Positions 29,873-41,173 of a stretch of 64,000 nt of DNA are shown piece after piece; position 1 is the stretch's first letter; every line of letters starts with the position of its first letter. Source of the stretch: Polyangiaceae bacterium (GTDB taxonomy: Bacteria > Myxococcota_A > Polyangia > Polyangiales > Polyangiaceae); NCBI GenBank assembly GCA_033763455.1, contig JANRKO010000011.1, positions 77,081 through 141,080 of the forward strand. The letters run 5' to 3'. A model generated the notes under the pieces. That model did not search any database, had not been told where the DNA came from, and saw only the letters and a program-made list of their open reading frames with translations. Both the position numbers and the translations under genes were made by a program.

Positions 29873-31243
29873 ATGGCTACGAGCTCAGATTTAGAGAACA
29901 TTTGGACCATAGAGCGCCTGGTTCCTGGCGGTCGAGGCTTGGCACGTTTGCCCGACGGGCGCATCGGCTTTGCTACTCAAGTGGCCCCGGGAGATAAGAT
30001 CCGCGTCCTTGCCGCCAAAACGCACCGGCAATTCGTAGAAGCCAGTGAATGGACCTTGGTAGAACCGGCAAACGACCGAGTGCACCCAGAGTGCCCTCAC
30101 TTCAATCACTGCGGAGGATGTGATTGGATGCACCTAAGCCGCCAAGCAGAGTTAGCCAGCAAACGAGCGCTCCTGTCCGATGCCTTGAAACGCGTCGGCA
30201 AACTGGGAGAGGTTCCGCCAATAGGTCTTGTAGCTGACCAATTCCCGTCCACCGACCCAGGATATTCAGAAGTCGGGGTAGCCAAAGGTTACCGCAATCG
30301 ACAGCGCTTCCACGTCAGCCCCTCAGGAAAGATCGGGCTGTTTGCTGAGAAATCCCACCAGCTCGTCGAAATAGAGACGTGTTTGATTTCTCACCCCGAA
30401 GTAGTGAGGGGGCTCGTTGTATTGCGGGAGGCGCTCGCTCGCAGGCCGGAGGTTGGGGTGTGGCTGTCGGAAGCTGAAGTGCGGATCTCAGAGCTAGCTC
30501 CCAAGCTCGCTGTCCGGCTCGTGCAAAGAAGCGCAGGTTTCAAACCGGAGCTCACACGAAAGTTTGTGCAAGAGTTGGAACAAAGCTTCGATCTGGTCAC
30601 AATCGGGAGACATCGCGCGCTTGAAACTCAGCGCTTTGCCGTTTTCGAAGATGTCGTGGTGGAGATCCCGCCCGCCGCGTTTGTTCAGGTGAACCCAAGC
30701 ATCAACGCAAAACTCGTGGCGCACGTGGTGGGTCGCTCAAAAGAGCTCGGTATCGAGTATTTCGCCGATCTATATGCGGGAGCGGGCAATTTCGCGCTCC
30801 CCCTCACGGCCGCCGGAATGCGAGGCGTCGCTCTCGAACAATCACGCCCCGCAGTAACAGCCGCCACCCGGCAGGTTCAGGCACTCAAGCTGGACTCGCG
30901 GCTCCAATACATACTCGGGGACGTCGCGACGGGTGTGGGAGCACTGGACAAAGCAACCGGTTCACGGCACCGAGCGAGCGAGACACGCCCTTTTGACCTA
31001 GTGATACTCGACCCGCCACGCGAGGGCGCCAAAGACGTACTCACGGGCGTATTGAGGTTGACCCCTCAGCACATAGCCTATTGCGCGTGCGACCCGGTAT
31101 CGCTAGCGCGGGACCTAAAGACGCTGACCGCTTCTGGGTATCAGCTCACCGATGTGACCATTTTCGACATGTTCCCCCGCACCCATCACTTCGAATCAGT
31201 AGCTTGGTTGTCACGCGGGCCTTTGCCTAAAGAGCGCTCCTGA
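29873..31243 (+). CDS. RlmD/TrmA-family RNA (uracil-5)-methyltransferase with TRAM domain
   Basis: CPHFNHCGGC, AFVQVN, DLYAGAGNF, LDPPREG, DMFPRTHHFE. Confidence 0.9.
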   Translation: MATSSDLENIWTIERLVPGGRGLARLPDGRIGFATQVAPGDKIRVLAAKTHRQFVEASEWTLVEPANDRVHPECPHFNHCGGCDWMHLSRQAELASKRALLSDALKRVGKLGEVPPIGLVADQFPSTDPGYSEVGVAKGYRNRQRFHVSPSGKIGLFAEKSHQLVEIETCLISHPEVVRGLVVLREALARRPEVGVWLSEAEVRISELAPKLAVRLVQRSAGFKPELTRKFVQELEQSFDLVTIGRHRALETQRFAVFEDVVVEIPPAAFVQVNPSINAKLVAHVVGRSKELGIEYFADLYAGAGNFALPLTAAGMRGVALEQSRPAVTAATRQVQALKLDSRLQYILGDVATGVGALDKATGSRHRASETRPFDLVILDPPREGAKDVLTGVLRLTPQHIAYCACDPVSLARDLKTLTASGYQLTDVTIFDMFPRTHHFESVAWLSRGPLPKERS

Positions 31244-31788
31244 TAGCGGCGGAACGCGCCGCGCATTTGGTGCTGCACTCGCTGCATAGCTAGGCCTAAT
31301 TTGGCGCGTTCCTTAGGCGTCATCACCTGGGCAAGCTCAGTGCCTTCCTCGCGGCGAAGGCGATGGATAGCTTCGGTGGTCGTATCCATCGCGGCCAGCA
31401 AGCGGGTAAACGCTCCTTGATCCTGGCTATCGGCTGCAACCAGACGCCGCACCTCTTGTTGCTGCTCTCGCAGCTGCTTACCTAGCTCTCGCTTCTTTGC
31501 ATGGAATTTCAGCAGTGTTTTCTCCACTTGAGCCTTGCGCGTGGCATCCAAGCCTACTTGTTCGGTCAAAACGCGCTCACGCACTTTGGCCAAACGCCCT
31601 TCAAGCTCGCGCCACCGTTCGCCGTGTTTGCCGTTTCTCGGTCGCTCGTGGGAGCCGCCCTTTGCCGCTCGAACGGGAACGTTATCGGCGTTTTGCCCAT
31701 GGGCAAGGGAGGTGAGGCTCCCAAGTAGCAAACAGCCTGCGCCAAGCACCCATACAGCCGCAGTTTTCGTAAACTTCTGAAACATCAT
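31186..31788 (-). CDS. Spy/CpxP-like periplasmic helical protein
   Basis: Signal peptide, coiled helices, MTPKERAK (LTxxQ-like). Confidence 0.7.
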   Translation of the reverse strand: MMFQKFTKTAAVWVLGAGCLLLGSLTSLAHGQNADNVPVRAAKGGSHERPRNGKHGERWRELEGRLAKVRERVLTEQVGLDATRKAQVEKTLLKFHAKKRELGKQLREQQQEVRRLVAADSQDQGAFTRLLAAMDTTTEAIHRLRREEGTELAQVMTPKERAKLGLAMQRVQHQMRGAFRRYQERSLGKGPRDNQATDSK

Positions 31789-32393
31789 CCACCTCCAAGC
31801 AACTCGTTCGTGGCTAGCATCCACCAGTCCACATCCTCTTCGGACAAGGGGCCATACAGATCTTCCGCACCCATGCCGCTCCCGAGCTCGGCATCATCGG
31901 CGTTGTCCCCAACCAACAGCAGACTTGCCTCCGCATCAGTGGTAGCCCAATTATGCTCGGCCCCGAGTGCGACTTCATCAGCCTCGGCGAACCCCGGCCC
32001 ATTCAGAACCTGAGCAGCCTCTCCGAGAGCCTCCGCCTCCTCGGATGTTGCGGGCCCAGCACCAACCACTCGCAATGCGTTCGGCGTGGCACGCTCTCCT
32101 ACGTCGTGCTCCGTGCCCTCCGGCAGAACGCCGGCAGCTTGGGCTCCAACCTCAGCTCCAGCTTGAACTCCGCGCATATCTAGAACCCAAAATCCTGCAG
32201 CGGCCGCCGCTAGCACCGCCGACGCCCCTACGGGTAACCACACCCAACGAGGCCTTCGCTCAAGCGCAGCCGTGGGAATTGCACGCGCCTTGCCCAACAT
32301 GCGAGCGACTTGCAAATCACTCGGCTCCTCGCCAGCCTTTTCAAACAGCTGCCTCAGTTCTACGTGCGCGTTCTGTTCATCCTCGTTGTTCAT
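31785..32393 (-). CDS. Putative anti-sigma factor (single TM)
   Basis: Directly downstream of ECF sigma; one TM; acidic C-terminus. Confidence 0.6.
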   Translation of the reverse strand: MNNEDEQNAHVELRQLFEKAGEEPSDLQVARMLGKARAIPTAALERRPRWVWLPVGASAVLAAAAAGFWVLDMRGVQAGAEVGAQAAGVLPEGTEHDVGERATPNALRVVGAGPATSEEAEALGEAAQVLNGPGFAEADEVALGAEHNWATTDAEASLLLVGDNADDAELGSGMGAEDLYGPLSEEDVDWWMLATNELLGGG

Positions 32394-32403
32394 ACAATCC
32401 TCG

Positions 32404-33012
32404 CTATTCGGAGATCACATCCGAGAGCTTCTCCTTCAATTCCTTCAACACCAGGTGCACAAGTACTCGAGCCGAGCCCTCGGTGGTGCCGGTTGCCTGA
32501 GCAATCTCAAGATAACTTAGGTTGGCGTCGAGCCGGAGTAGCGCCACCTGTTGCCGCTTTTTGGGCATTTGTGCCAAAGCTTCGCGAACTCTTTCCGCCA
32601 GTCGCTGCGCGGTTAACTGCTCAGCAGGATTCGCCGTGGGCTCGGGACCCACCGTGGCTTCTTCTCGACGCCGACGCCGACGCTCGGAGCGCAACAGTGT
32701 GAGTGCTTGCCTCGCTGCGATGGCTCCTAAGAACGCCTTGAGCGAAGTACCAGCCTCGTAGCTACCGAGCTTTTTGAATGCCAACGCGAGCGTCTCCTGC
32801 ACCGCATCTTCGGCGAGCGCAGAACTCCCACACGCGCGCTGAGCAATGCGATAAAGGAGCGGCAGGTGCGGCCCCACCAACGAAGCAAACGCGTGTCCGT
32901 CCCCTTGGAGAGCACGAAGAATGAGTTCCTGCTCGAGCGGCACCGAGCCTTCAGAATTGCCCCGGTACTCTGAAAAAGCTAGGGACCGGTTAGGCAACGT
33001 CATGACGTGCAT
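32404..33012 (-). CDS. ECF RNA polymerase sigma factor
   Basis: GD..AF..LV, AEDAVQET, region 4 LSYLEIA..TGTTEGSAR. Confidence 0.9.
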   Translation of the reverse strand: MHVMTLPNRSLAFSEYRGNSEGSVPLEQELILRALQGDGHAFASLVGPHLPLLYRIAQRACGSSALAEDAVQETLALAFKKLGSYEAGTSLKAFLGAIAARQALTLLRSERRRRRREEATVGPEPTANPAEQLTAQRLAERVREALAQMPKKRQQVALLRLDANLSYLEIAQATGTTEGSARVLVHLVLKELKEKLSDVISE

Positions 33013-33103
33013 CGAGACACCTCACTGATGCCTGGGGAGGCCAATCCGTTAAAGCCCCGCTCAGCCGCACGTGAAATGCCGGGCAATCGTGAGACCTTAT
33101 GTA

Positions 33104-33712
33104 TCAGCGCTTTGGTGGCGACGCGTGGCGCGATACAAAATCCTGTATCGCATTGAGAATGCCGGCGTTCACTTGCTCGCTGCCTGTGGCATTTTCGCGG
33201 AGCCAGGTCTTGGTAACCTGAAGTGAGTGATCCCCGGAGGGGACCACGTACAGCTCGTTGGGGGCCCGCATTTTCCGCCGCACCGACTCTAAGAGCTCTA
33301 TGGGACACAACGGATCGCGGGTGCCCTGCAGAAAAAGCACTGGGGTTCGGAGCTCCTTCAACACTTCGTCGCGAACCTTCTGAAGGTTTCCGGCGCTGAG
33401 CAACGGATACCCAAAACACACAAGCGCGTTTGGCGGAGACTCCAGCGACACGTGGCAGCCCACTCGGCCCCCCATGCTCTTGCCGGCAAGGATCACCGGC
33501 CCCCTGTGGTGGGCTGCAGCCGCAACCAGGGCTTCCTGGTGCGCCTTAATCAACGTGGGAAGGGGATCGGGCCGGTGTCGCCCCTGAAGCATGTAAGGAT
33601 AGTCAAACGACTGAACTTTGCCGACCCGCGCGAGCCGTGTGGCCCAGACGCGCATCCAAGGCGAGCTGGAATCGGCACCGGCTCCGGGAGCAAAAAGCAG
33701 TAGTGGCTTCAT
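33104..33712 (-). CDS. Alpha/beta hydrolase (KANL3/Tex30-like)
   Basis: GAGA, GKSMGGR, FGYPL, QGTRD, GDH. Confidence 0.88.
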   Translation of the reverse strand: MKPLLLFAPGAGADSSSPWMRVWATRLARVGKVQSFDYPYMLQGRHRPDPLPTLIKAHQEALVAAAAHHRGPVILAGKSMGGRVGCHVSLESPPNALVCFGYPLLSAGNLQKVRDEVLKELRTPVLFLQGTRDPLCPIELLESVRRKMRAPNELYVVPSGDHSLQVTKTWLRENATGSEQVNAGILNAIQDFVSRHASPPKR

Positions 33713-33870
33713 CCCGGCAGCATGGAGCGTGTGGCACGCGAAAAAAAGTCGGCCGGGTCAGAGCTACAGTGCCCCAACCCGGCCAGAGGAGCGTTGCGAC
33801 ACGCACCCTACAAAACGACTCCCCGACCGAAGACTTAACGGGGCCTGTCTTCGTTTTGGCTGCATGCAAC

Positions 33871-33915
33871 AAAAAAAAACAACGGCCCAGAGTGAGGGGG
33901 TACTCTGGACCGTTG
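33871..33915 (-). terminator. Intrinsic terminator (sRNA hairpin 2)
   Basis: CAACGGTCCAGAGT-loop-ACTCTGGGCCGTTG followed by T9. Confidence 0.8.
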
Positions 33916-33970
33916 AGAGGAAGCGACGGCTGCCCGGGCGGAGGGGGGGATCGCCAAGGCGGCCGTCCAA
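33871..33970 (-). ncRNA. Putative sigma54-dependent small RNA with two C-rich-loop hairpins (Pxr-like architecture)
   Basis: sigma54 box directly upstream; hairpin 1 GACGGC..GCCGUC with loop AUCCCCCCCUC; hairpin 2 14-bp stem with loop ACCCCCUC followed by U9. Confidence 0.7.
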
Positions 33971-33980
33971 GCTCTTACTA

Positions 33981-33996
33981 AGCAGTATCCGTGCCA
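33981..33996 (-). promoter_or_regulatory. sigma54 -24/-12 promoter of the sRNA
   Basis: TGGCACGGATACTGCT, canonical spacing. Confidence 0.78.
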
Positions 33997-34068
33997 TACT
34001 CGGATCTACGGTTATTGCGGTGTTTCCTTCGGGGCGAGGCGAGCGGGACCTTCCAACTTAGCAAATGA

Positions 34069-34086
34069 CGTTTCGTAAACGAAACG
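34069..34086. promoter_or_regulatory. Palindrome, candidate enhancer (bEBP) site
   Basis: Perfect CGTTTCGT-AA-ACGAAACG about 107 bp upstream of the predicted sRNA start. Confidence 0.45.
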
Positions 34087-34249
34087 ATGACGGCACCGAG
34101 GAGCCAAACGTCTTCAGACTTCATGTGCGCGGTGAGCAGGTCCGAGCTCGGTCGGATTTGCATCAAGTGACCCGCCCGCCCACGAGCAAGCCAGGCGGCT
34201 TTCCTCCGTTAGAATAATCGAGCAAGATGGCCGGCAGCCGAGAATCGTT

Positions 34250-34780
34250 ATGGCAAGCGACAGACCAGACTACCCGAGCCCACAGCCGGGTGATCCGGAA
34301 GACGTAAGAGTTGCGCTGCAAGCGGGCGAGCATGCCTGGAAGAGTGGGAACGAACGGGAGGCATTGCGCTCGCTCCAGCGTGCCACATTGGCTGCCACTA
34401 AGACCAACCCAGGGCAACGCGCGGGCCAGTTGGCGCAAGCAGTAGCAGCCCTGTCCCAGCGGGTGGGAGGCCAGGTGCTGACGGTTCCGACTCTCTCGAA
34501 ACCCGTCCCAACCGGAGCCACCCCGGAAAACGACTACTCAGATACAACCGTGGTAGACGGCCCCGCCGAAACGGTCTCCGCGCCCAAGCTCCAGGCGAAA
34601 ATCACACCACCCAAAGCACGCATGGCACTGCGCGTGGCAGTGGAACCGACGCCGGGGGAGCCCAACGTACTGAGAGTGCACTTGCTCGAGGATGGTCGCG
34701 CGCCTGCTCAGGGCTTGCACGAGGCTTTCCTCGTTGCAGTGGAACCCTTGGCGGATCTGCTGCGCCGCAAAGATGCCTAG
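34250..34780 (+). CDS. Hypothetical protein
   Basis: 176-aa ORF filling the gap; helical N-terminus. Confidence 0.65.
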   Translation: MASDRPDYPSPQPGDPEDVRVALQAGEHAWKSGNEREALRSLQRATLAATKTNPGQRAGQLAQAVAALSQRVGGQVLTVPTLSKPVPTGATPENDYSDTTVVDGPAETVSAPKLQAKITPPKARMALRVAVEPTPGEPNVLRVHLLEDGRAPAQGLHEAFLVAVEPLADLLRRKDA

Positions 34781-34842
34781 CAGAAGCTCGCTGGGACCAC
34801 CGTTTTGCGACGCAGCCAGCTCAAGAGCGATAGCGCCCGAGC

Positions 34843-36162
34843 TCAAAGAAAATCTTTAAGCATCCGGCAACGCTTGGGATTTTTGAGCTTTCGAAGGGCT
34901 TTGGCTTCGATCTGACGAATACGCTCGCGCGTAACCTCGAAATCTTGGCCAACCTCTTCGAGCGTGTGCTCGCTCTTTTCCTCAATCCCAAAGCGCATGC
35001 GCAGCACCTTCTCTTCGCGTGGCGTAAGCGTCTTTAACGCACGCCCAGTTTGCTCGCTCAAGCTGCTTTCGATGGCCGCCTCTACAGGGCTGACAGCGCC
35101 GGCATCTTCAATGAAATCGCCCAGGCAGCTGTCCCCTTCCTCGCCAAACGGTGTCTCCAGGCTCAGCGGCTCCTTCACCAGCTTGAGCACCTTGTTGAGC
35201 TCAGTGGGAGATATCTCCAGCTCCTTGGCGATCTCTTCCGGCGTCGGCTCGCGCCCGAGCTCATGCATCAAAAAGCGGGCAGTGCGAAACACCTTGTTGG
35301 TGGTTTCCAGCATGTGCACCGGGATGCGAATGGTCCGTGATTGATCCGCGATCGCTCGGGTGATGGCCTGGCGGATCCACCACGTGCCGTAAGTGGAGAA
35401 TTTATACCCGCGTCGGTAGTCAAACTTTTCTACCGCGCGCATCAAGCCAATGTTGCCCTCTTGCACGAGGTCCAGGAACTGAAGGCCGTGGTTGGTGTAC
35501 TTTTTGGCAATCGACACGACCAAGCGCAAATTGGCCTCGACGAGCTCTGCCTTGGCACGCTCCGTGAGGCGCTCACTCCGGCAAATCTGCTCGTAGGTGG
35601 CTTGTGCCTGCTGCGATGCGCTCGCTGAAAGCTGACGCTCCTGCATCTGCTGCTGATGCGACGCCTTCTGGTGCTTGATGAGCCGCTGAATGAGCTTACC
35701 GCTCAGCTGCATCTGCTTCAAAATCTCAATGCACTTGCCACGGTGTTCACGGATGCTGGCCGTGACTTCCTTCTTCTTCTCGGCAGTGCTGCCCTTACTC
35801 TCTTCAACGAGCTGAGCAATCTGCTTCTCTAGCTTTTTGATCTTCTCGATCAGGCCCAGGAAGCGCTGAACGGATTCCTCTTCGGAACGGTTTTCAATGT
35901 CTTCCAGGTCGCCCAAGAGCGTGTTCGCTCGGATCTTCCCGAGCCGAAGTTGCTCAGCAAGACGCATGAGCTCCTCCATTGCCCAAGGGCTGCTAAAGAG
36001 CGCTTCGAGGATCTGGACTTGGCCTTCCTCAATGCGTTTCGCAATCTCAATTTCGCGCTCACGGGTTAACAGCGCAGTCCGCGCCATCTTTGTGAGGTAG
36101 GCGCGGACGCCATCACTCTCTAGACCCGAAGCATCACCCGATCTCTGAGTTGTCTTTTTCAA
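34843..36162 (-). CDS. RpoD-like sigma-70 factor lacking region 1.1
   Basis: [86 protein letters not shown]. Confidence 0.92.
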
Positions 36163-36359
36163 GCGCCCTGTCCTAGCACCTTTCCAGAAAAAGGGGGCTA
36201 CTTCGCGCTTTTTACCGAAGTGGTCCCATCCCGGCGATTTCTGGGGGTCCTGCCGGGGTCCCCACCGCCCCGGGACCCGTGCGCGACTTGGCTGGCGGCC
36301 AATTCCAGGGGTCCGACGGAAAACCTTGGCAGGCCGTGGGCGACCTGATAGTCGGCCGC

Positions 36360-36887
36360 ATGGCTAACCCGGCACTTACCGCCCAGACCGACCGCGTCGT
36401 CTCTATCCTCTATGTACTGACCCTCAGCGACGGCAGGCAAGTCGACTCGTCCGGCGTTGACGATCCCCTCGAATACCTGCACGGACACGACAACATTGTT
36501 CCAGGACTCGAACGCAAGCTTGAGGGTCGAGCGGTGGGCGATAAGTTGAAGGTCACCGTGGCGCCAGTCGACGGGTACGGGGACGTTGAGCCCGACGGGG
36601 TGCAGACCATGCCAAAGGATGCTTTTCCGCCCGGAGTAGAGGTCGGAATGCAGCTTGCGATGGAAGATGACGAGGGCGACACCGTGTCACTTTGGGTCAA
36701 AGAAGTTACTAAGGACAACGTCGTTATCGACTTCAATCACCCGCTCGCCGGGCAGACGCTTCATTTTGATGTCGAAGTTGTCGGGGTTCGAGAAGCGAGC
36801 CCTGAAGAGCTCGAACACGGTCACGTGCATGGCGCCCACGATCATCACCACGATGACTCCGAGGACGACCACCACCACCATCACTGA
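36360..36887 (+). CDS. slyD: FKBP-type PPIase SlyD with His-rich tail
   Basis: [33 protein letters not shown], His-rich C-terminus. Confidence 0.92.
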
Positions 36888-37999
36888 TCCGGATCGGGCG
36901 GTGGCACCACGAATTCGTATTCGGTAGCCCAAGATTTCTCCGCACCGGAGTCGAGGTGCAGAGCAATGAACACCTCAGGCGCCACCACTTCGCGTACCGA
37001 CCAAACGGTGAATTTCTCCGGCGCAAAGTCCCCAGAAACGCGCACCTTGGAACCAACCTGCGTGTTTTCTAGCTCGAAGCTAAAGGTGGGCCTCGCGTCA
37101 GTGGGCTTCAGGTTTCCGAAGATCGAAGACTTCGCTGGAATGGGGCCAAGCACCTCCAGCGCAGAGCCAACCAAGCGCCCTAAGCTAGGCGGCTGAAGGC
37201 CCTCTATAACGACAACGGGTGCACCGAAGGCAACGCGATAGGCTGGGCCAATGAACTGACCGTCCAAGCGGAAGAAATTGTGCGCGTAGTGATTGGTGTG
37301 GATGGGTTCTGAACCCGTGTTCTTGAGCGTGTGCTCGATCACCAGCAGCGTGCGGGTCGGATCGAGCCGCACCACTTTTCGATATTGATAACCAAACCCG
37401 CGGCTTATGGGCAGCTCCTGCGAAAAAGTGGCGCTCAGCGCGTCGTGCTCCACGCGCCACGGCAGGGCTCGCACGAGGGGATACTCACCGTTGAAACTGT
37501 AGGGCTCGGCTGAGGTGCGACGGAGCTCACCCACTCCGATCTTGAAGAATGATTCACCTGGCTTGGCCGCGGCGTAGCCGAGTGGCGTCTCGATGCCGAA
37601 TTCCTCAGCCGGCCCCGTCGCGGCGTCATGAGCCAACGGGTCGTGAGTTGCTTGCCACGGCTCCACAAACCGATGTGCGCCGACCTTTACCGAGCCAATA
37701 ATGCCCGAGCGGTCGAAGCGAATTCCCCGATAATAACCGGTGACCGCATCGGGCGGAAAAACCTGTACTTGCATATTGGGGTTACCGAGGAAAAACACTG
37801 GGAAAGTGTCGCTCGGCTGTGAGTTGGCGTCGCTTGAGCGTTCCACATTTCCCGGCGCGACTAAGGTCGAGCTCGGCTCTCTGGAGCGGGGACATGGGCC
37901 GCTTCCGGCACAGCTCAGTAGGCTCGTGGCCACCAGCACCAAGCGGAACCTTCGGACAAACGCTAGGGAACCGAACGGAATGAGGTGGGGACTGCTCAT
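36881..37999 (-). CDS. Lipoprotein, galactose-mutarotase-like hypothetical
   Basis: Lipobox LLSC; YYRGIRFD, GPAEEF, HYAHNFF. Confidence 0.65.
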   Translation of the reverse strand: MSSPHLIPFGSLAFVRRFRLVLVATSLLSCAGSGPCPRSREPSSTLVAPGNVERSSDANSQPSDTFPVFFLGNPNMQVQVFPPDAVTGYYRGIRFDRSGIIGSVKVGAHRFVEPWQATHDPLAHDAATGPAEEFGIETPLGYAAAKPGESFFKIGVGELRRTSAEPYSFNGEYPLVRALPWRVEHDALSATFSQELPISRGFGYQYRKVVRLDPTRTLLVIEHTLKNTGSEPIHTNHYAHNFFRLDGQFIGPAYRVAFGAPVVVIEGLQPPSLGRLVGSALEVLGPIPAKSSIFGNLKPTDARPTFSFELENTQVGSKVRVSGDFAPEKFTVWSVREVVAPEVFIALHLDSGAEKSWATEYEFVVPPPDPDQ

Positions 38000-38665: not shown

Positions 38666-41173
38666 ATGGCAAGGCACCCCTTCATGCTTCCTTCGACCAC
38701 GCCAGAGCGCCCACCTCGTCGAACGTTCCGCCCCACCACCATGATGAGGTGGATTACTGCGTGGTTAAGCTGCAGCTTGCTTTTCCTGGCGGCCATTTCG
38801 GCTCCGAGCTGCGCGCGAACCCAGCTTTGCGATGCGCTCACGGGCGAGTGCCCGGTCATTAAAGGTGCGGTCGGAACCGGTGGTACTGGGAACGGCGGCA
38901 CTGGCGGGAACGGCAATATGGGGTGCACAACCGGCACCGCTTGCAATGGCCTGTGCGTGAACACGGCGACTGACCCCAAGAACTGCGGAGCCTGCGGCAA
39001 CGTGTGTGGCGATGGCCTTGTCTGCCAGGGCGGTACCTGCACAGGGACGTGCAACCCAGGCCTTTTGCAGTGCGGCAGTGAATGTGTGAAGGCGGATAGC
39101 GATCCCGCAAACTGCGGAGCCTGCGGCAACGTGTGCGCCACGGGTCAAAGCTGTTCGAATGGCGCGTGCAGTTGTGCCGTTGATAGTGCGTTGTGCAACG
39201 GCACGTGTCGCTCTCTCGCGAGTGATCCGAATAACTGCGGAACCTGCGGCAACGTGTGCGGGCGTGGCGCCCCATTTTGCCAACAAAATGGCTGTGTTTC
39301 TCAGTGTCAGGCGCCTTTTTCAGCCTGCGGCCTGAGCTGCGTAGATAGGCTGAGCGACCCTCTGAACTGCGGGGCTTGCGGCAACGTGTGCGGAGGGGGG
39401 CGCAGCTGCTCAGCAGGCGCTTGCGTGTGCCCTGCCGGTTTTCAAGACTGCAATGGGCAGTGTGTTGACCTCAAAGCTGATGGCGCCAACTGTGGAGTTT
39501 GCGGAAACAAGTGTGACGCCACCTCTCAGTGCCTAAACGCCAAGTGCGAATGCCAAAATGGCGGCGTTCGCTGCAACAACCTCTGCACCACCACAGCCAG
39601 CGACCCCAATAATTGCGGCGCTTGCGGCAACGTCTGCGGCAACGGCAAGGTCTGCGCGAACGGAGCGTGCCAAGATCTGTGCCCTGTGCCACTCAGCTCC
39701 TGCAACGGCAGCTGCCTCGATCTCACCTCCGATCCCGCCAACTGCGGCACCTGCGGAAACAAGTGCGCGACGGGCCAAAGCTGTGAAGGTGGGTCCTGCC
39801 GCTGCCAAGGTGGTGGCCTAGCTTGCGGCGGCGTGTGCAAAGATGGGCTGAGCGATCCTAATAACTGCGGCGCCTGTGGCAACGTCTGCGGGGCACGGCA
39901 AACGTGTTCGGGAGCGAAGTGCCAATGCGACGCAACCAGCACCGATTGCAACGGCACCTGCACCAACACGGCCGCAGATCCCAATAACTGCGGTGCTTGC
40001 GGCAAGGCTTGTGCGAATGGCCAGGTCTGCCAATTCGGACAGTGCACCACGAGCTGCACCGCGCCCCTTCAGAACTGCAGCGGCGGGTGCGTTGATCTCA
40101 CTACCGATAGTCAGAACTGCAGTGCCTGCGGCATCGCGTGTGGTGCCGGGCAAGTGTGCTCGGGCGGGAAATGCGCTTGCCCCAATGGGACCACTTCCTG
40201 CAGCGGGCAGTGCGTGAGCACCCTCACCGACCCCAATAACTGCGGAGGGTGCGGCCTTGTGTGTTCGGGGGGCAAGAGCTGCAGTGGAGGCCTCTGTGTA
40301 TGCCCAGCTGGCGCCAGCAACTGTGGCGGTGTCTGTGCTTTTACCTCAACGGATAAGGCCAATTGCGGAAGCTGCGGTGTTTCGTGCGGTGCCGCACAAT
40401 CCTGCAACGCGGGCATGTGTTCTTGCCCAGGAAGCCAGACCGCGTGCAACGGAGCCTGCGTGGACGCGCTCACGGACGCTGCCAACTGTGGCGGTTGCGG
40501 TCGCGCCTGCGGGGCTTCGCAGGAGTGCATCTCGGGGGCTTGTCGGTGCGACGCCCGCACCACATTCTGCAATGGGCAATGCTCGAATACGCGCAGCGAT
40601 CACGAAAATTGTGGAGCCTGCGGCAACGCCTGTGCTGCCAACCAAGTGTGCAGCAACGGTAATTGCCAGACGATGTGTTCTGGCAACAATGTGCAATGCA
40701 TGGCCAATTCCTGCGTGAGCTTGCGGGACGACGTGAACAACTGTGGAGCGTGCGGTGTTGCCTGCGCAAGTGGGGAGGCTTGCTTCCGCGGAACCTGCGC
40801 CTGCAGGCGAGGCCTGCAAGCTTGCAACGGTACCTGCACCGATCCCCTCAACGATCCGAATAACTGCGGAGCGTGTGGCAAGGCGTGCGGCATAGGCGCC
40901 GTGTGCAATGGCGGGACGTGCGGTTGCCCGGGCGGCTCGGTAGCGTGCGGTAACGTTTGCGCCAATCCGCTTACGGATCCATCGAACTGCGGGAGGTGTG
41001 GCAACGCGTGCCCGGCTGGGGCCTCCTGCTTGAATGGCGCGTGCGGCTGTGCAGGGGAAACGAACCTGTGCAAAGGCGCGTGCGTGAACGTGCTGCTCGA
41101 TCCACAGAACTGTGGCGGCTGCGGCAAGCCCTGCGCACCTGGACAAAGCTGCAACAACGGCTCTTGCCAGTAG
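38666..41173 (+). CDS. MXAN_6577-like (Stig1-like) Cys-rich repeat lipoprotein
   Basis: About 17 repeats of D..NCG.CG..C; signal/lipobox APSC; start may be 38741. Confidence 0.88.
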   Translation: MARHPFMLPSTTPERPPRRTFRPTTMMRWITAWLSCSLLFLAAISAPSCARTQLCDALTGECPVIKGAVGTGGTGNGGTGGNGNMGCTTGTACNGLCVNTATDPKNCGACGNVCGDGLVCQGGTCTGTCNPGLLQCGSECVKADSDPANCGACGNVCATGQSCSNGACSCAVDSALCNGTCRSLASDPNNCGTCGNVCGRGAPFCQQNGCVSQCQAPFSACGLSCVDRLSDPLNCGACGNVCGGGRSCSAGACVCPAGFQDCNGQCVDLKADGANCGVCGNKCDATSQCLNAKCECQNGGVRCNNLCTTTASDPNNCGACGNVCGNGKVCANGACQDLCPVPLSSCNGSCLDLTSDPANCGTCGNKCATGQSCEGGSCRCQGGGLACGGVCKDGLSDPNNCGACGNVCGARQTCSGAKCQCDATSTDCNGTCTNTAADPNNCGACGKACANGQVCQFGQCTTSCTAPLQNCSGGCVDLTTDSQNCSACGIACGAGQVCSGGKCACPNGTTSCSGQCVSTLTDPNNCGGCGLVCSGGKSCSGGLCVCPAGASNCGGVCAFTSTDKANCGSCGVSCGAAQSCNAGMCSCPGSQTACNGACVDALTDAANCGGCGRACGASQECISGACRCDARTTFCNGQCSNTRSDHENCGACGNACAANQVCSNGNCQTMCSGNNVQCMANSCVSLRDDVNNCGACGVACASGEACFRGTCACRRGLQACNGTCTDPLNDPNNCGACGKACGIGAVCNGGTCGCPGGSVACGNVCANPLTDPSNCGRCGNACPAGASCLNGACGCAGETNLCKGACVNVLLDPQNCGGCGKPCAPGQSCNNGSCQ

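What the first reader, a model, noticed from the sequence alone, without database searches (positions are those of the whole stretch)
33871..34086. Unannotated sigma54-driven sRNA with twin C-rich loops (Pxr-like)
Seen: a complete ~100-nt minus-strand unit with no convincing ORF. It has a sigma54 box TGGCACGGATACTGCT (33981-33996), hairpin 1 with loop AUCCCCCCCUC, hairpin 2 (14-bp stem) with loop ACCCCCUC, then U9. A perfect 8-2-8 palindrome lies about 107 bp upstream, where enhancer-binding proteins act. Both loops share CCCCCUC, complementary to G-rich Shine-Dalgarno-like sequences. Known: the Myxococcus developmental repressor Pxr is a sigma54 sRNA with C-rich stem-loops, described from Cystobacterineae. 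Inference: this is a distant homolog or convergent analog in a Sorangiineae-like genome that may block translation at RBSs. One weak local target is GUGAGGGG at the 5' end of the 42434-42952 gene.
Basis: partly seen in the sequence, partly recalled or inferred. Interest (0 to 1): 0.82.

Follow-up and report, generated by a model that had tools for sequence, protein, structure and literature searches.

The report
Distant relative of Pxr small RNA
This is a real gene for a roughly 100-base regulatory RNA from a widespread, undescribed family in Polyangiales myxobacteria that shares its promoter design and activator protein with Pxr, the RNA that gates fruiting-body development in Myxococcus, so that switch is probably much older than published.

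Summary
Confirmed: sigma54 box, two C-loop hairpins, U9 (fold z -6.7), a second copy in the same genome and covarying homologs. Nine true Pxr loci carry the same tandem enhancer. The genome encodes an activator that groups with PxrR and shares its recognition helix. In 7 of 52 Polyangiales loci that activator is followed directly by enhancer, sigma54 box and a C7-loop hairpin, the pxrR-pxr layout. Enhancer + box + C6 occurs in 94 of 251 order genomes, control 1, with 1-6 hairpins per RNA. Against: RNA-level likeness to Pxr is barely above decoys, the Rfam Pxr cut-off is missed, no pxrK neighbour, no expression data, no supported target. Verdict: not an RF01812 member, but probably a deep homolog under a PxrR ortholog, most likely masking G-rich ribosome-binding sites. 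The scan noted this family before on three other genomes.

The parts
33871..33970 (-). Predicted sRNA, about 100 nt (start inferred 12 nt after the -12 GC; end at the U run)
   Evidence: Fold z -6.74; 69.1 bits against family model R2, which was built without this copy; start position inferred from recalled sigma54 spacing, not measured
33925..33967 (-). Hairpin 1, loop AUCCCCCCCUC (33941-33951); the module shared by all family members
   Evidence: the C7-U-CC run is invariant in alignment A1, partly by construction of the search pattern
33880..33915 (-). Hairpin 2, 14-bp stem, loop ACCCCCUC (33894-33901); doubles as terminator stem
   Evidence: 8 of 14 pairs with changes on both sides, 98.3% of cells paired in 25 distinct sequences, 0 of 500 shuffles as high
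33871..33879 (-). U9 tract of the intrinsic terminator
   Evidence: Sequence; U-rich tail kept in alignment A2
33981..33996 (-). Sigma54 -24/-12 promoter
   Evidence: Present at the same spacing in 27 of 29 loci found with a promoter-free RNA pattern
34051..34064 (-).
   Evidence: Family peak at -67
34069..34086 (-). Distal enhancer site (TTTC-N6-GAAA, 34071-34084) inside the 8-2-8 palindrome, 20 bp from the proximal site
   Evidence: Family peak at -87; same tandem motif upstream of 9 of 9 Pxr loci

Best explanation
A stand-alone small-RNA gene. An NtrC-type activator orthologous to Myxococcus PxrR (encoded elsewhere, G000:C52:39636-41102) binds two TTKCR-N4-YGMAA sites 20 bp apart and activates sigma54 polymerase, giving a ~100-nt RNA of two hairpins that ends at an intrinsic terminator. 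The working unit is a stable stem that displays an unpaired run of 5-10 C. The unit (enhancer + sigma54 box + C-loop hairpin) most likely descends from the same locus as pxr, directly behind pxrR, and in Polyangiales was copied and moved; this genome has two such copies. The RNA most likely acts in trans, without Hfq, by pairing its C-loops with G-rich ribosome-binding regions of many mRNAs and lowering their translation. Shown by sequence comparison: conservation, structure, promoter, enhancer, activator orthology as far as testable, synteny in relatives. Inferred: transcription, activator binding, common descent, the pairing mechanism. Unknown: targets, signal, kinase. Step estimates: real sigma54 sRNA 0.95; driven by the PxrR ortholog 0.9; common descent with Pxr 0.85; acts by mRNA pairing 0.7.
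For: Second copy in the genome, 82% over 90 nt. 40 members among 66 hits of an all-GTDB pattern scan. Promoter-free RNA pattern in 44 of 301 family genomes, reversed control 1; 27 of 29 such loci have the sigma54 box and an enhancer site. Enhancer in 40 of 45 members, shuffle mean 0.4. A matrix trained on the family alone scores tandem sites upstream of 9 of 9 Pxr loci at 22.8-34.7 (family median 29.5); of 219 sigma54-like boxes in G000 only the two sRNA copies score so (34.1, 26.6; next 11.7). PxrR's best match in G000 is 50.7% identical, 470 bits against 361 for the next, and the only hit for the helix-turn-helix; 13 Polyangiales proteins and 4 PxrR form one clade, SH-aLRT 100 (99). 15 of 52 activator loci are followed by enhancer + sigma54 box, 7 of them by a C7-loop hairpin (an eighth, L437, by eye). 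A one-base change in the Pxr SL1 loop abolishes function without loss of the RNA (PMC5684412, passages), and proximity ligation places Pxr near the SD sequence of several mRNAs (10.1101/2025.09.11.675593, figure legend and passage). No Hfq found in G000.
Against: The RNA alone barely resembles Pxr: 18 bits against a gathering score of 80 for a relative's copy, and the family model gives nine Pxr genes 10.6-20.5 bits while the best of 80 C-rich decoys gets 16.0 and an unrelated site in a Pxr locus 16.3. This copy has two hairpins, Pxr three. The window copy is not next to pxrR, and none of the 54 Polyangiales activator loci examined showed a PxrK-like kinase within the DNA fetched; PxrK has only kinase-domain matches of 27-40% in G000. 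Orthology was tested in one direction only (no whole Myxococcaceae genome was in hand). The target scan was uninformative and G6 runs are not enriched before first ATGs. Loop C-run length varies freely within arrays, which fits protein binding as well as pairing. The high scores of the two G000 copies are partly circular, since they helped train the matrix.
Confidence: 0.58

Rival explanations
1. Same gene, same activator, but the RNA is a protein decoy: each hairpin presents an oligo-C loop to an RNA-binding protein, and more hairpins or more gene copies soak up more of it (as CsrB/RsmZ do for CsrA with GGA loops; recalled).
For: One to six C-loop hairpins per RNA, with C-runs of 5-12 nt varying within one array (L311); 2-4 copies per genome in several large genomes; the only constant is the C-run, not a fixed seed. 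G000 encodes CsrA and two KhpA/B-type KH proteins. PMC5684412 (passage) leaves chaperone binding by SL1 open.
Against: CsrA binds GGA, not C-runs (recalled). Pxr chimeras map near SD sequences of mRNAs (10.1101/2025.09.11.675593, passage). Cuckoo RNAs have the same modular build and an anti-SD-like loop (PMC4615179, passages).
Confidence: 0.2
2. Convergence: the activator and its enhancer are old, but the C-loop RNAs of Polyangiales arose separately from Pxr, C-loop hairpins being an easy way to hit G-rich ribosome-binding sites.
For: RNA-level similarity is near decoy level; unrelated alphaproteobacterial families score higher than Pxr (ar7 29.7, ar14 23.6 bits); enhancer-to-promoter and promoter-to-loop distances differ (93/112 and 51 nt in most Pxr loci against 67/87 and about 40-43); 8 of the 15 activator-adjacent promoters have no C-loop hairpin.
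Against: A C7-loop hairpin sits at the same place behind the orthologous activator in four Polyangiales families and in the Pxr clade; outside the order, 0 of 12 promoter hits with a tandem site had a C6 run, against 15 of 27 inside, so the pairing of enhancer and C-loop is not automatic.
Confidence: 0.13
3. A cis-acting leader or attenuator for the alpha/beta hydrolase gene at 33104-33712.
For: The hydrolase follows on the same strand 159 nt after the U run. Single-hairpin members often lie before a co-oriented YkuD gene (cluster c2, 14 loci) or a receiver gene, so read-through may matter for those.
Against: The next gene is convergent in 19 of 25 two-hairpin loci that show one; the second copy in G000 faces a convergent gene; neighbours differ between lineages while the RNA is kept.
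Confidence: 0.04

Closest known systems
Pxr sRNA of Myxococcus xanthus and other Cystobacterineae (Rfam RF01812) with its activator PxrR (Nla19/SpdR, MXAN_1078)
   Same: Sigma54 promoter; tandem TTKCR-N4-YGMAA enhancer with 19-20 bp spacing; orthologous activator with the TTLWRKM helix; 5' hairpin with a C7 loop; terminator hairpin; in some relatives the same position directly behind the activator gene; tandem paralogs, as reported for Cystobacter (PMC5568312).
   Different: Two hairpins, both with C loops, instead of three with one; stems unrelated beyond weak similarity; shorter promoter spacing; this copy is away from the activator; no pxrK or pxrA neighbour found; family has 1-6 hairpins and several copies per genome.
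Cuckoo RNAs of Alphaproteobacteria (ar14 RF02344, CcsR RF02791) and ar7 (RF02342)
   Same: Modular RNAs of repeated hairpins with pyrimidine-rich, anti-SD-like loops (PMC4615179, passages); best Rfam scores for this locus.
   Different: Loop motif is a plain C-run, not CCUCCUCCC; scores far below gathering (23.6 of 58.8; 29.7 of 60); other phylum; sigma54/PxrR control. Analog, not relative.
Qrr sRNAs of Vibrio (LuxO, sigma54); recalled, not tested
   Same: Several redundant sRNA genes, each with its own sigma54 promoter and sites for one NtrC-type activator.
   Different: Qrr RNAs need Hfq and use a fixed seed; no sequence relation; no Hfq found here.

Membership tests
Pxr (RF01812) | Covariance-model score at or above the gathering threshold (80 bits) | tested here: not met
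   Not listed at E<=10 for window 31000-37000; none in G000, 150 of 1042 candidates scored; 18.0 bits for a relative's paralog; positive control L119 113.8 bits
Pxr (RF01812) | Three stem-loops with conserved SL2 | tested here: not met
   Two hairpins; Pxr loci fold into three
Pxr (RF01812) | First hairpin exposes a C7 loop | tested here: met
   Loop AUCCCCCCCUC here; UCCCCCCC in the Pxr loci
Pxr (RF01812) | Conserved 8-bp segment of the last stem | tested here: inconclusive
   Window copy differs at 3 and 2 of 8 positions on the two arms; across 27 two-hairpin members 1-3 and 0-2; the 8-mer was read from the Rfam consensus, the paper's figure was not seen
Pxr (RF01812) | Sigma54 promoter with upstream enhancer region | tested here: met
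   Same tandem motif upstream of this locus and of 9 of 9 Pxr loci; sequence evidence only
Pxr (RF01812) | Lies directly downstream of pxrR | tested here: not met
   Not for this copy; met by family members in 7 of 52 activator loci
Pxr (RF01812) | pxrK kinase gene upstream of pxrR | tested here: not met
   No PxrK-like match in the 54 Polyangiales activator loci, most with about 2 kb upstream, the 12 tool-returned ones with little or none; G000 activator lies behind queA/tgt-like genes (names from my reading of the translations)
Pxr (RF01812) | PxrR-dependent transcription, processing to L and S forms, block of development | not testable with these tools
   No RNA holder listed; needs bench work
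Cuckoo RNAs (ar14/CcsR) | CCUCCUCCC in every loop | tested here: not met
   Loops are C-runs
Cuckoo RNAs (ar14/CcsR) | Two to four adjacent motif-bearing hairpins | tested here: met
   Two here; 1-6 in the family
Cuckoo RNAs (ar14/CcsR) | Rfam gathering score | tested here: not met
   ar14 23.6 of 58.8; CcsR1 16.0 of 65.3 on a relative's paralog

The most novel reading that the evidence does not exclude
The PxrR + C-loop-hairpin module is an ancient myxobacterial checkpoint older than the split of Myxococcia and Polyangia; its active unit is one hairpin showing C7, so Polyangiales RNAs (including the ~55-nt single hairpins and six-hairpin arrays) are functionally interchangeable with Pxr, tune strength by hairpin and gene number, and serve a growth-state role broader than fruiting, since a copy and its activator survive in a 1.8-Mb reduced genome (G028).
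Probability: 0.3. Interest if true: 0.86.

Novelty: new variant of a known kind. Interest (0 to 1): 0.73.

Why it matters
Pxr is the textbook case of a recently born bacterial sRNA, said to have arisen at the base of the Cystobacterineae (PMC5568312, PMC5684412, PMC8538405). If these RNAs are homologs, that origin moves back to the common ancestor with Polyangiales and the apparent novelty was a limit of sequence search. The comparison also yields a concrete predicted PxrR binding site (tandem TTKCR-N4-YGMAA), which the passages I read do not give, and reduces the conserved core of Pxr to a C7 loop; both can be tested at once in M. xanthus with published strains. It shows that a fast-evolving sRNA can be traced by its promoter and activator when covariance models fail.

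Tried and rejected
Rfam: nothing at gathering level for the window region or for 9 family loci. RF01812 across 151 phylum genomes rang nowhere and the phylum pattern scan gave no Pxr-type hit: these samples seem to hold no Pxr-bearing genome, so they say nothing about Myxococcia. Expression: no RNA holder listed; no reads were laid. Model R1 was built with a mis-registered structure and never used. RNAalifold on plain alignments missed hairpin 1 because MAFFT shifted its bulges; the 27 of 29 covarying pairs come from a model-fitted alignment that leans to the structure and includes diverged hits; the inner four pairs of hairpin 1 vary little. In one search two queries (g0R, queA) were translated from the wrong strand; g0R was redone. 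Target search: start codons were chosen by SD pairing, so the ranking is partly circular; no target is claimed. A GNAT gene follows the RNA in L077/L087 but shows no match to PxrA. A peptide reading was rejected: overlapping ORFs have no Pfam match and C-run lengths change by single bases among homologs. Pattern one search matched nothing (wrong spacing). Scripts 78 and 80 ended in errors; the neighbourhood of the G636 copy was therefore not resolved. Papers not held: Chen 2014, Yu 2016, Chen 2019.

Full report
Observation. The stretch folds at -53.7 kcal/mol, z -6.74, 0 of 200 shuffles as stable. Rfam has no family at gathering level; the best scores are ar7 29.7 and ar14 23.6 bits.

A conserved family. 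The genome holds a second copy (C19:230718-230807, 82% identical), and two of three same-genus genomes also show two. A scan of all GTDB species for sigma54 box plus hairpin-1 loop gave 66 hits; 43 passed a folding filter and I dropped 3 more by eye as chance, leaving 40, titled Polyangiaceae (29), Polyangiales (4), Myxococcales or Myxococcota (3), delta proteobacterium (2) and Pseudomonadota (2). With 5 loci this made 45 members, 27 of them with two hairpins. Hairpin 2 covaries on a plain alignment: 8 of 14 pairs change on both sides, 98.3% of cells pair, 0 of 500 shuffles reach that. Because that scan required the promoter, I repeated it without: a promoter-free RNA pattern hit 44 of 301 family genomes, reversed control 1 (one counted genome, G431, is unpublished), and 27 of the 29 loci inspected had a sigma54 box 25-29 nt before the inner stem and an enhancer site; one more has a variant box by eye, the last lacks the stem. 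The next gene is convergent in 19 of the 25 two-hairpin loci that show one, so the RNA is not a leader of a fixed gene.

The enhancer. TTTC-N6-GAAA with at most one mismatch lies 63-92 bp upstream of the -24 GG in 40 of 45 members, peaking at -67 and -87; shuffles give 0.4 on average, and spacers of 3-5 give none. The fuller consensus is TTKCR-N4-YGMAA. A further element near -30 resembles an IHF site (consensus recalled) in about 28 of 45 members but is not clear in the window copy.

Link to Pxr. Nine Pxr loci were fetched from metagenomes; L119 scores 113.8 bits on RF01812, and L116 and L119 show the kinase-regulator-RNA-acetyltransferase order described in PMC5684412. All nine carry the same tandem motif, scoring 22.8-34.7 on a matrix trained only on the Polyangiales family (median 29.5). 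Among 219 sigma54-like boxes in G000 only the two sRNA copies have it (34.1 and 26.6; next 11.7; partly circular for these two). PxrR's best match in G000 (C52:39636-41102) is 50.7% identical, 470 bits against 361, and the only match to its helix-turn-helix. Quick trees join this protein and its Polyangiales relatives with PxrR to the exclusion of the other G000 activators: SH-aLRT 99 among 48 rows (the careful search did not finish) and 100 among 29 rows. The reverse test against all Myxococcaceae paralogs could not be run. I then read the DNA behind this activator in 52 loci (12 returned, 40 chosen by me across families from its 118 matching genomes; L428 was chosen because a coordinate coincidence already suggested synteny). 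All 52 have the TTLWRKM helix; 15 are followed by enhancer and sigma54 box, and 7 of these by a hairpin with a C7 loop, in four families; L437 is an eighth by eye, with a more distant enhancer. The gene after it is usually a conserved single-domain receiver. This is the pxrR-enhancer-promoter-pxr layout. In G000 the activator has no such neighbour; the two RNA units have moved away.

Range. Enhancer + sigma54 box + C6 occurs in 94 of 251 genomes of the order, 12 of 19 families, control 1 (G740 unpublished, counted). With a promoter-only pattern (85 matches not listed, 40 regions picked by me), 15 of 27 order loci with a tandem site had a C6 run downstream, against 0 of 12 outside the order. 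Eight of ten large family genomes probed by handle carry one to four units, mostly single hairpins with C6-11 loops and a U tail. Others have three to six C-loop hairpins in a row. Outside the order 2 of 251 phylum genomes matched; one looks like chance, one (G636) is a true two-hairpin copy but isolated in its class, 2 of 121, so transfer or mis-binning is possible. The phylum samples appear to lack Pxr-bearing genomes.

Against. The RNA itself hardly resembles Pxr: 18 bits against a cut-off of 80; in reverse 10.6-20.5 bits for nine Pxr genes against 16.0 for the best of 80 C-rich decoys. Pxr has three hairpins. No PxrK-like kinase was seen beside the activator. No RNA holder was listed.

Mechanism. 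The constant feature across the family and Pxr is an exposed C-run, which can pair only with G-rich RNA. In M. xanthus a single change in that loop abolishes function but not accumulation (PMC5684412), and proximity ligation places Pxr near the SD sequence of several mRNAs (10.1101/2025.09.11.675593). I therefore favour Hfq-independent masking of G-rich ribosome-binding regions (no Hfq found in a 93.7% complete genome), switched by the PxrR ortholog. The decoy rival stays open because arrays with free loop length and several gene copies are what sponges look like; G000 has CsrA and KhpA/B.

Known and novel. It works like Pxr and probably shares its ancestry, but fails the membership tests for RF01812 and for the cuckoo RNAs, whose modular build it parallels (PMC4615179). 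Published work places the origin of pxr at the base of the Cystobacterineae (PMC5568312, PMC5684412, PMC8538405). Seven searches listed no paper on such RNAs in Polyangiales or on a PxrR site. Three papers that could bear on this were not held (Chen 2014, Yu 2016, Chen 2019), a 2020 survey of M. xanthus non-coding RNAs was seen only as a citation, and the preprint's supplement with the Pxr partners was not seen. What I saw: PMC5568312 parts 1-2 of 6, passages and its primer supplement; PMC5684412 part 1 of 4 and passages; PMC11928866 passages and one section; PMC10217877, PMC8538405, PMC4615179, 10.1101/2025.09.11.675593 and 10.64898/2026.08.28.747804 passages only. Qrr, CsrB/RsmZ, IHF and sigma54 spacing are recalled. 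Three earlier notes of this scan describe the same family on other genomes; I read them after the enhancer, activator and range results were in, and the synteny test came afterwards and is my own.

Verdict. Real feature; new variant of a known kind; interest 0.73, because it challenges a published origin story and gives M. xanthus workers a predicted activator site and a minimal RNA unit to test.

Noticed in passing
L311:3100-3510 (G153:C4): One sigma54 unit with six tandem C-loop hairpins (C-runs of 5-12) after two unrelated hairpins, ending in U7; L309, L053 and L105 have three hairpins, L144 a tandem duplication of hairpin 1.
   Followed up: partly
L423, L427, L428, L438, L439, L442, L453, L461, L462, L320, L332: A conserved single-domain receiver gene follows the PxrR ortholog under the same enhancer and sigma54 promoter, with or without the C-loop hairpin between; no clear ortholog in G000. 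It may be a feedback element of the pathway.
   Followed up: partly
L398 and L465 (G028): A 1.8-Mb single-contig genome of the family keeps one single-hairpin copy with full enhancer and the activator gene, suggesting a role beyond fruiting.
   Followed up: partly
G208:C6, G715:C81, G737:C84, G745:C138: Complete units, each with its own enhancer and promoter, lie in tandem about 300-400 bp apart, recalling the tandem pxr paralogs of Cystobacter.
   Followed up: no
L304, L305, L310: The first hairpin has lost its C loop while the terminator hairpin carries the hairpin-1-type loop: the loop can move between modules.
   Followed up: no
cluster c2, 14 loci such as L046, L048, L054, L095: The single-hairpin type closest to this copy lies just before a co-oriented YkuD L,D-transpeptidase gene, often near a type II/IV secretion ATPase gene; read-through control of a cell-wall enzyme is possible.
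   Followed up: partly
L400 (G636:C1:199557-199800): A two-hairpin member in a genome of another class, with no like hit in its family or nearly all of its class: transfer or mis-binned contig.
   Followed up: partly
window 31186-33012 and 34843-36162: The RNA is flanked by an ECF sigma factor with a likely anti-sigma and a Spy/CpxP-like gene on one side and an RpoD-like sigma70 (Pfam regions 1.2-4) on the other; this arrangement is shared with two same-genus loci.
   Followed up: no
window 34250-34780: Divergent 176-aa ORF without Pfam match; homologs lie near the RNA in 13 loci (cluster c3).
   Followed up: no
L329, L330 (G575, G519): In another order of the class, a similar tandem site and sigma54 box drive a protein-coding gene beside a different activator, so the motif may not be unique to PxrR.
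   Followed up: partly
window 38666-41173: 835-aa cysteine-rich protein with at least ten STIG1-like repeats.
   Followed up: no
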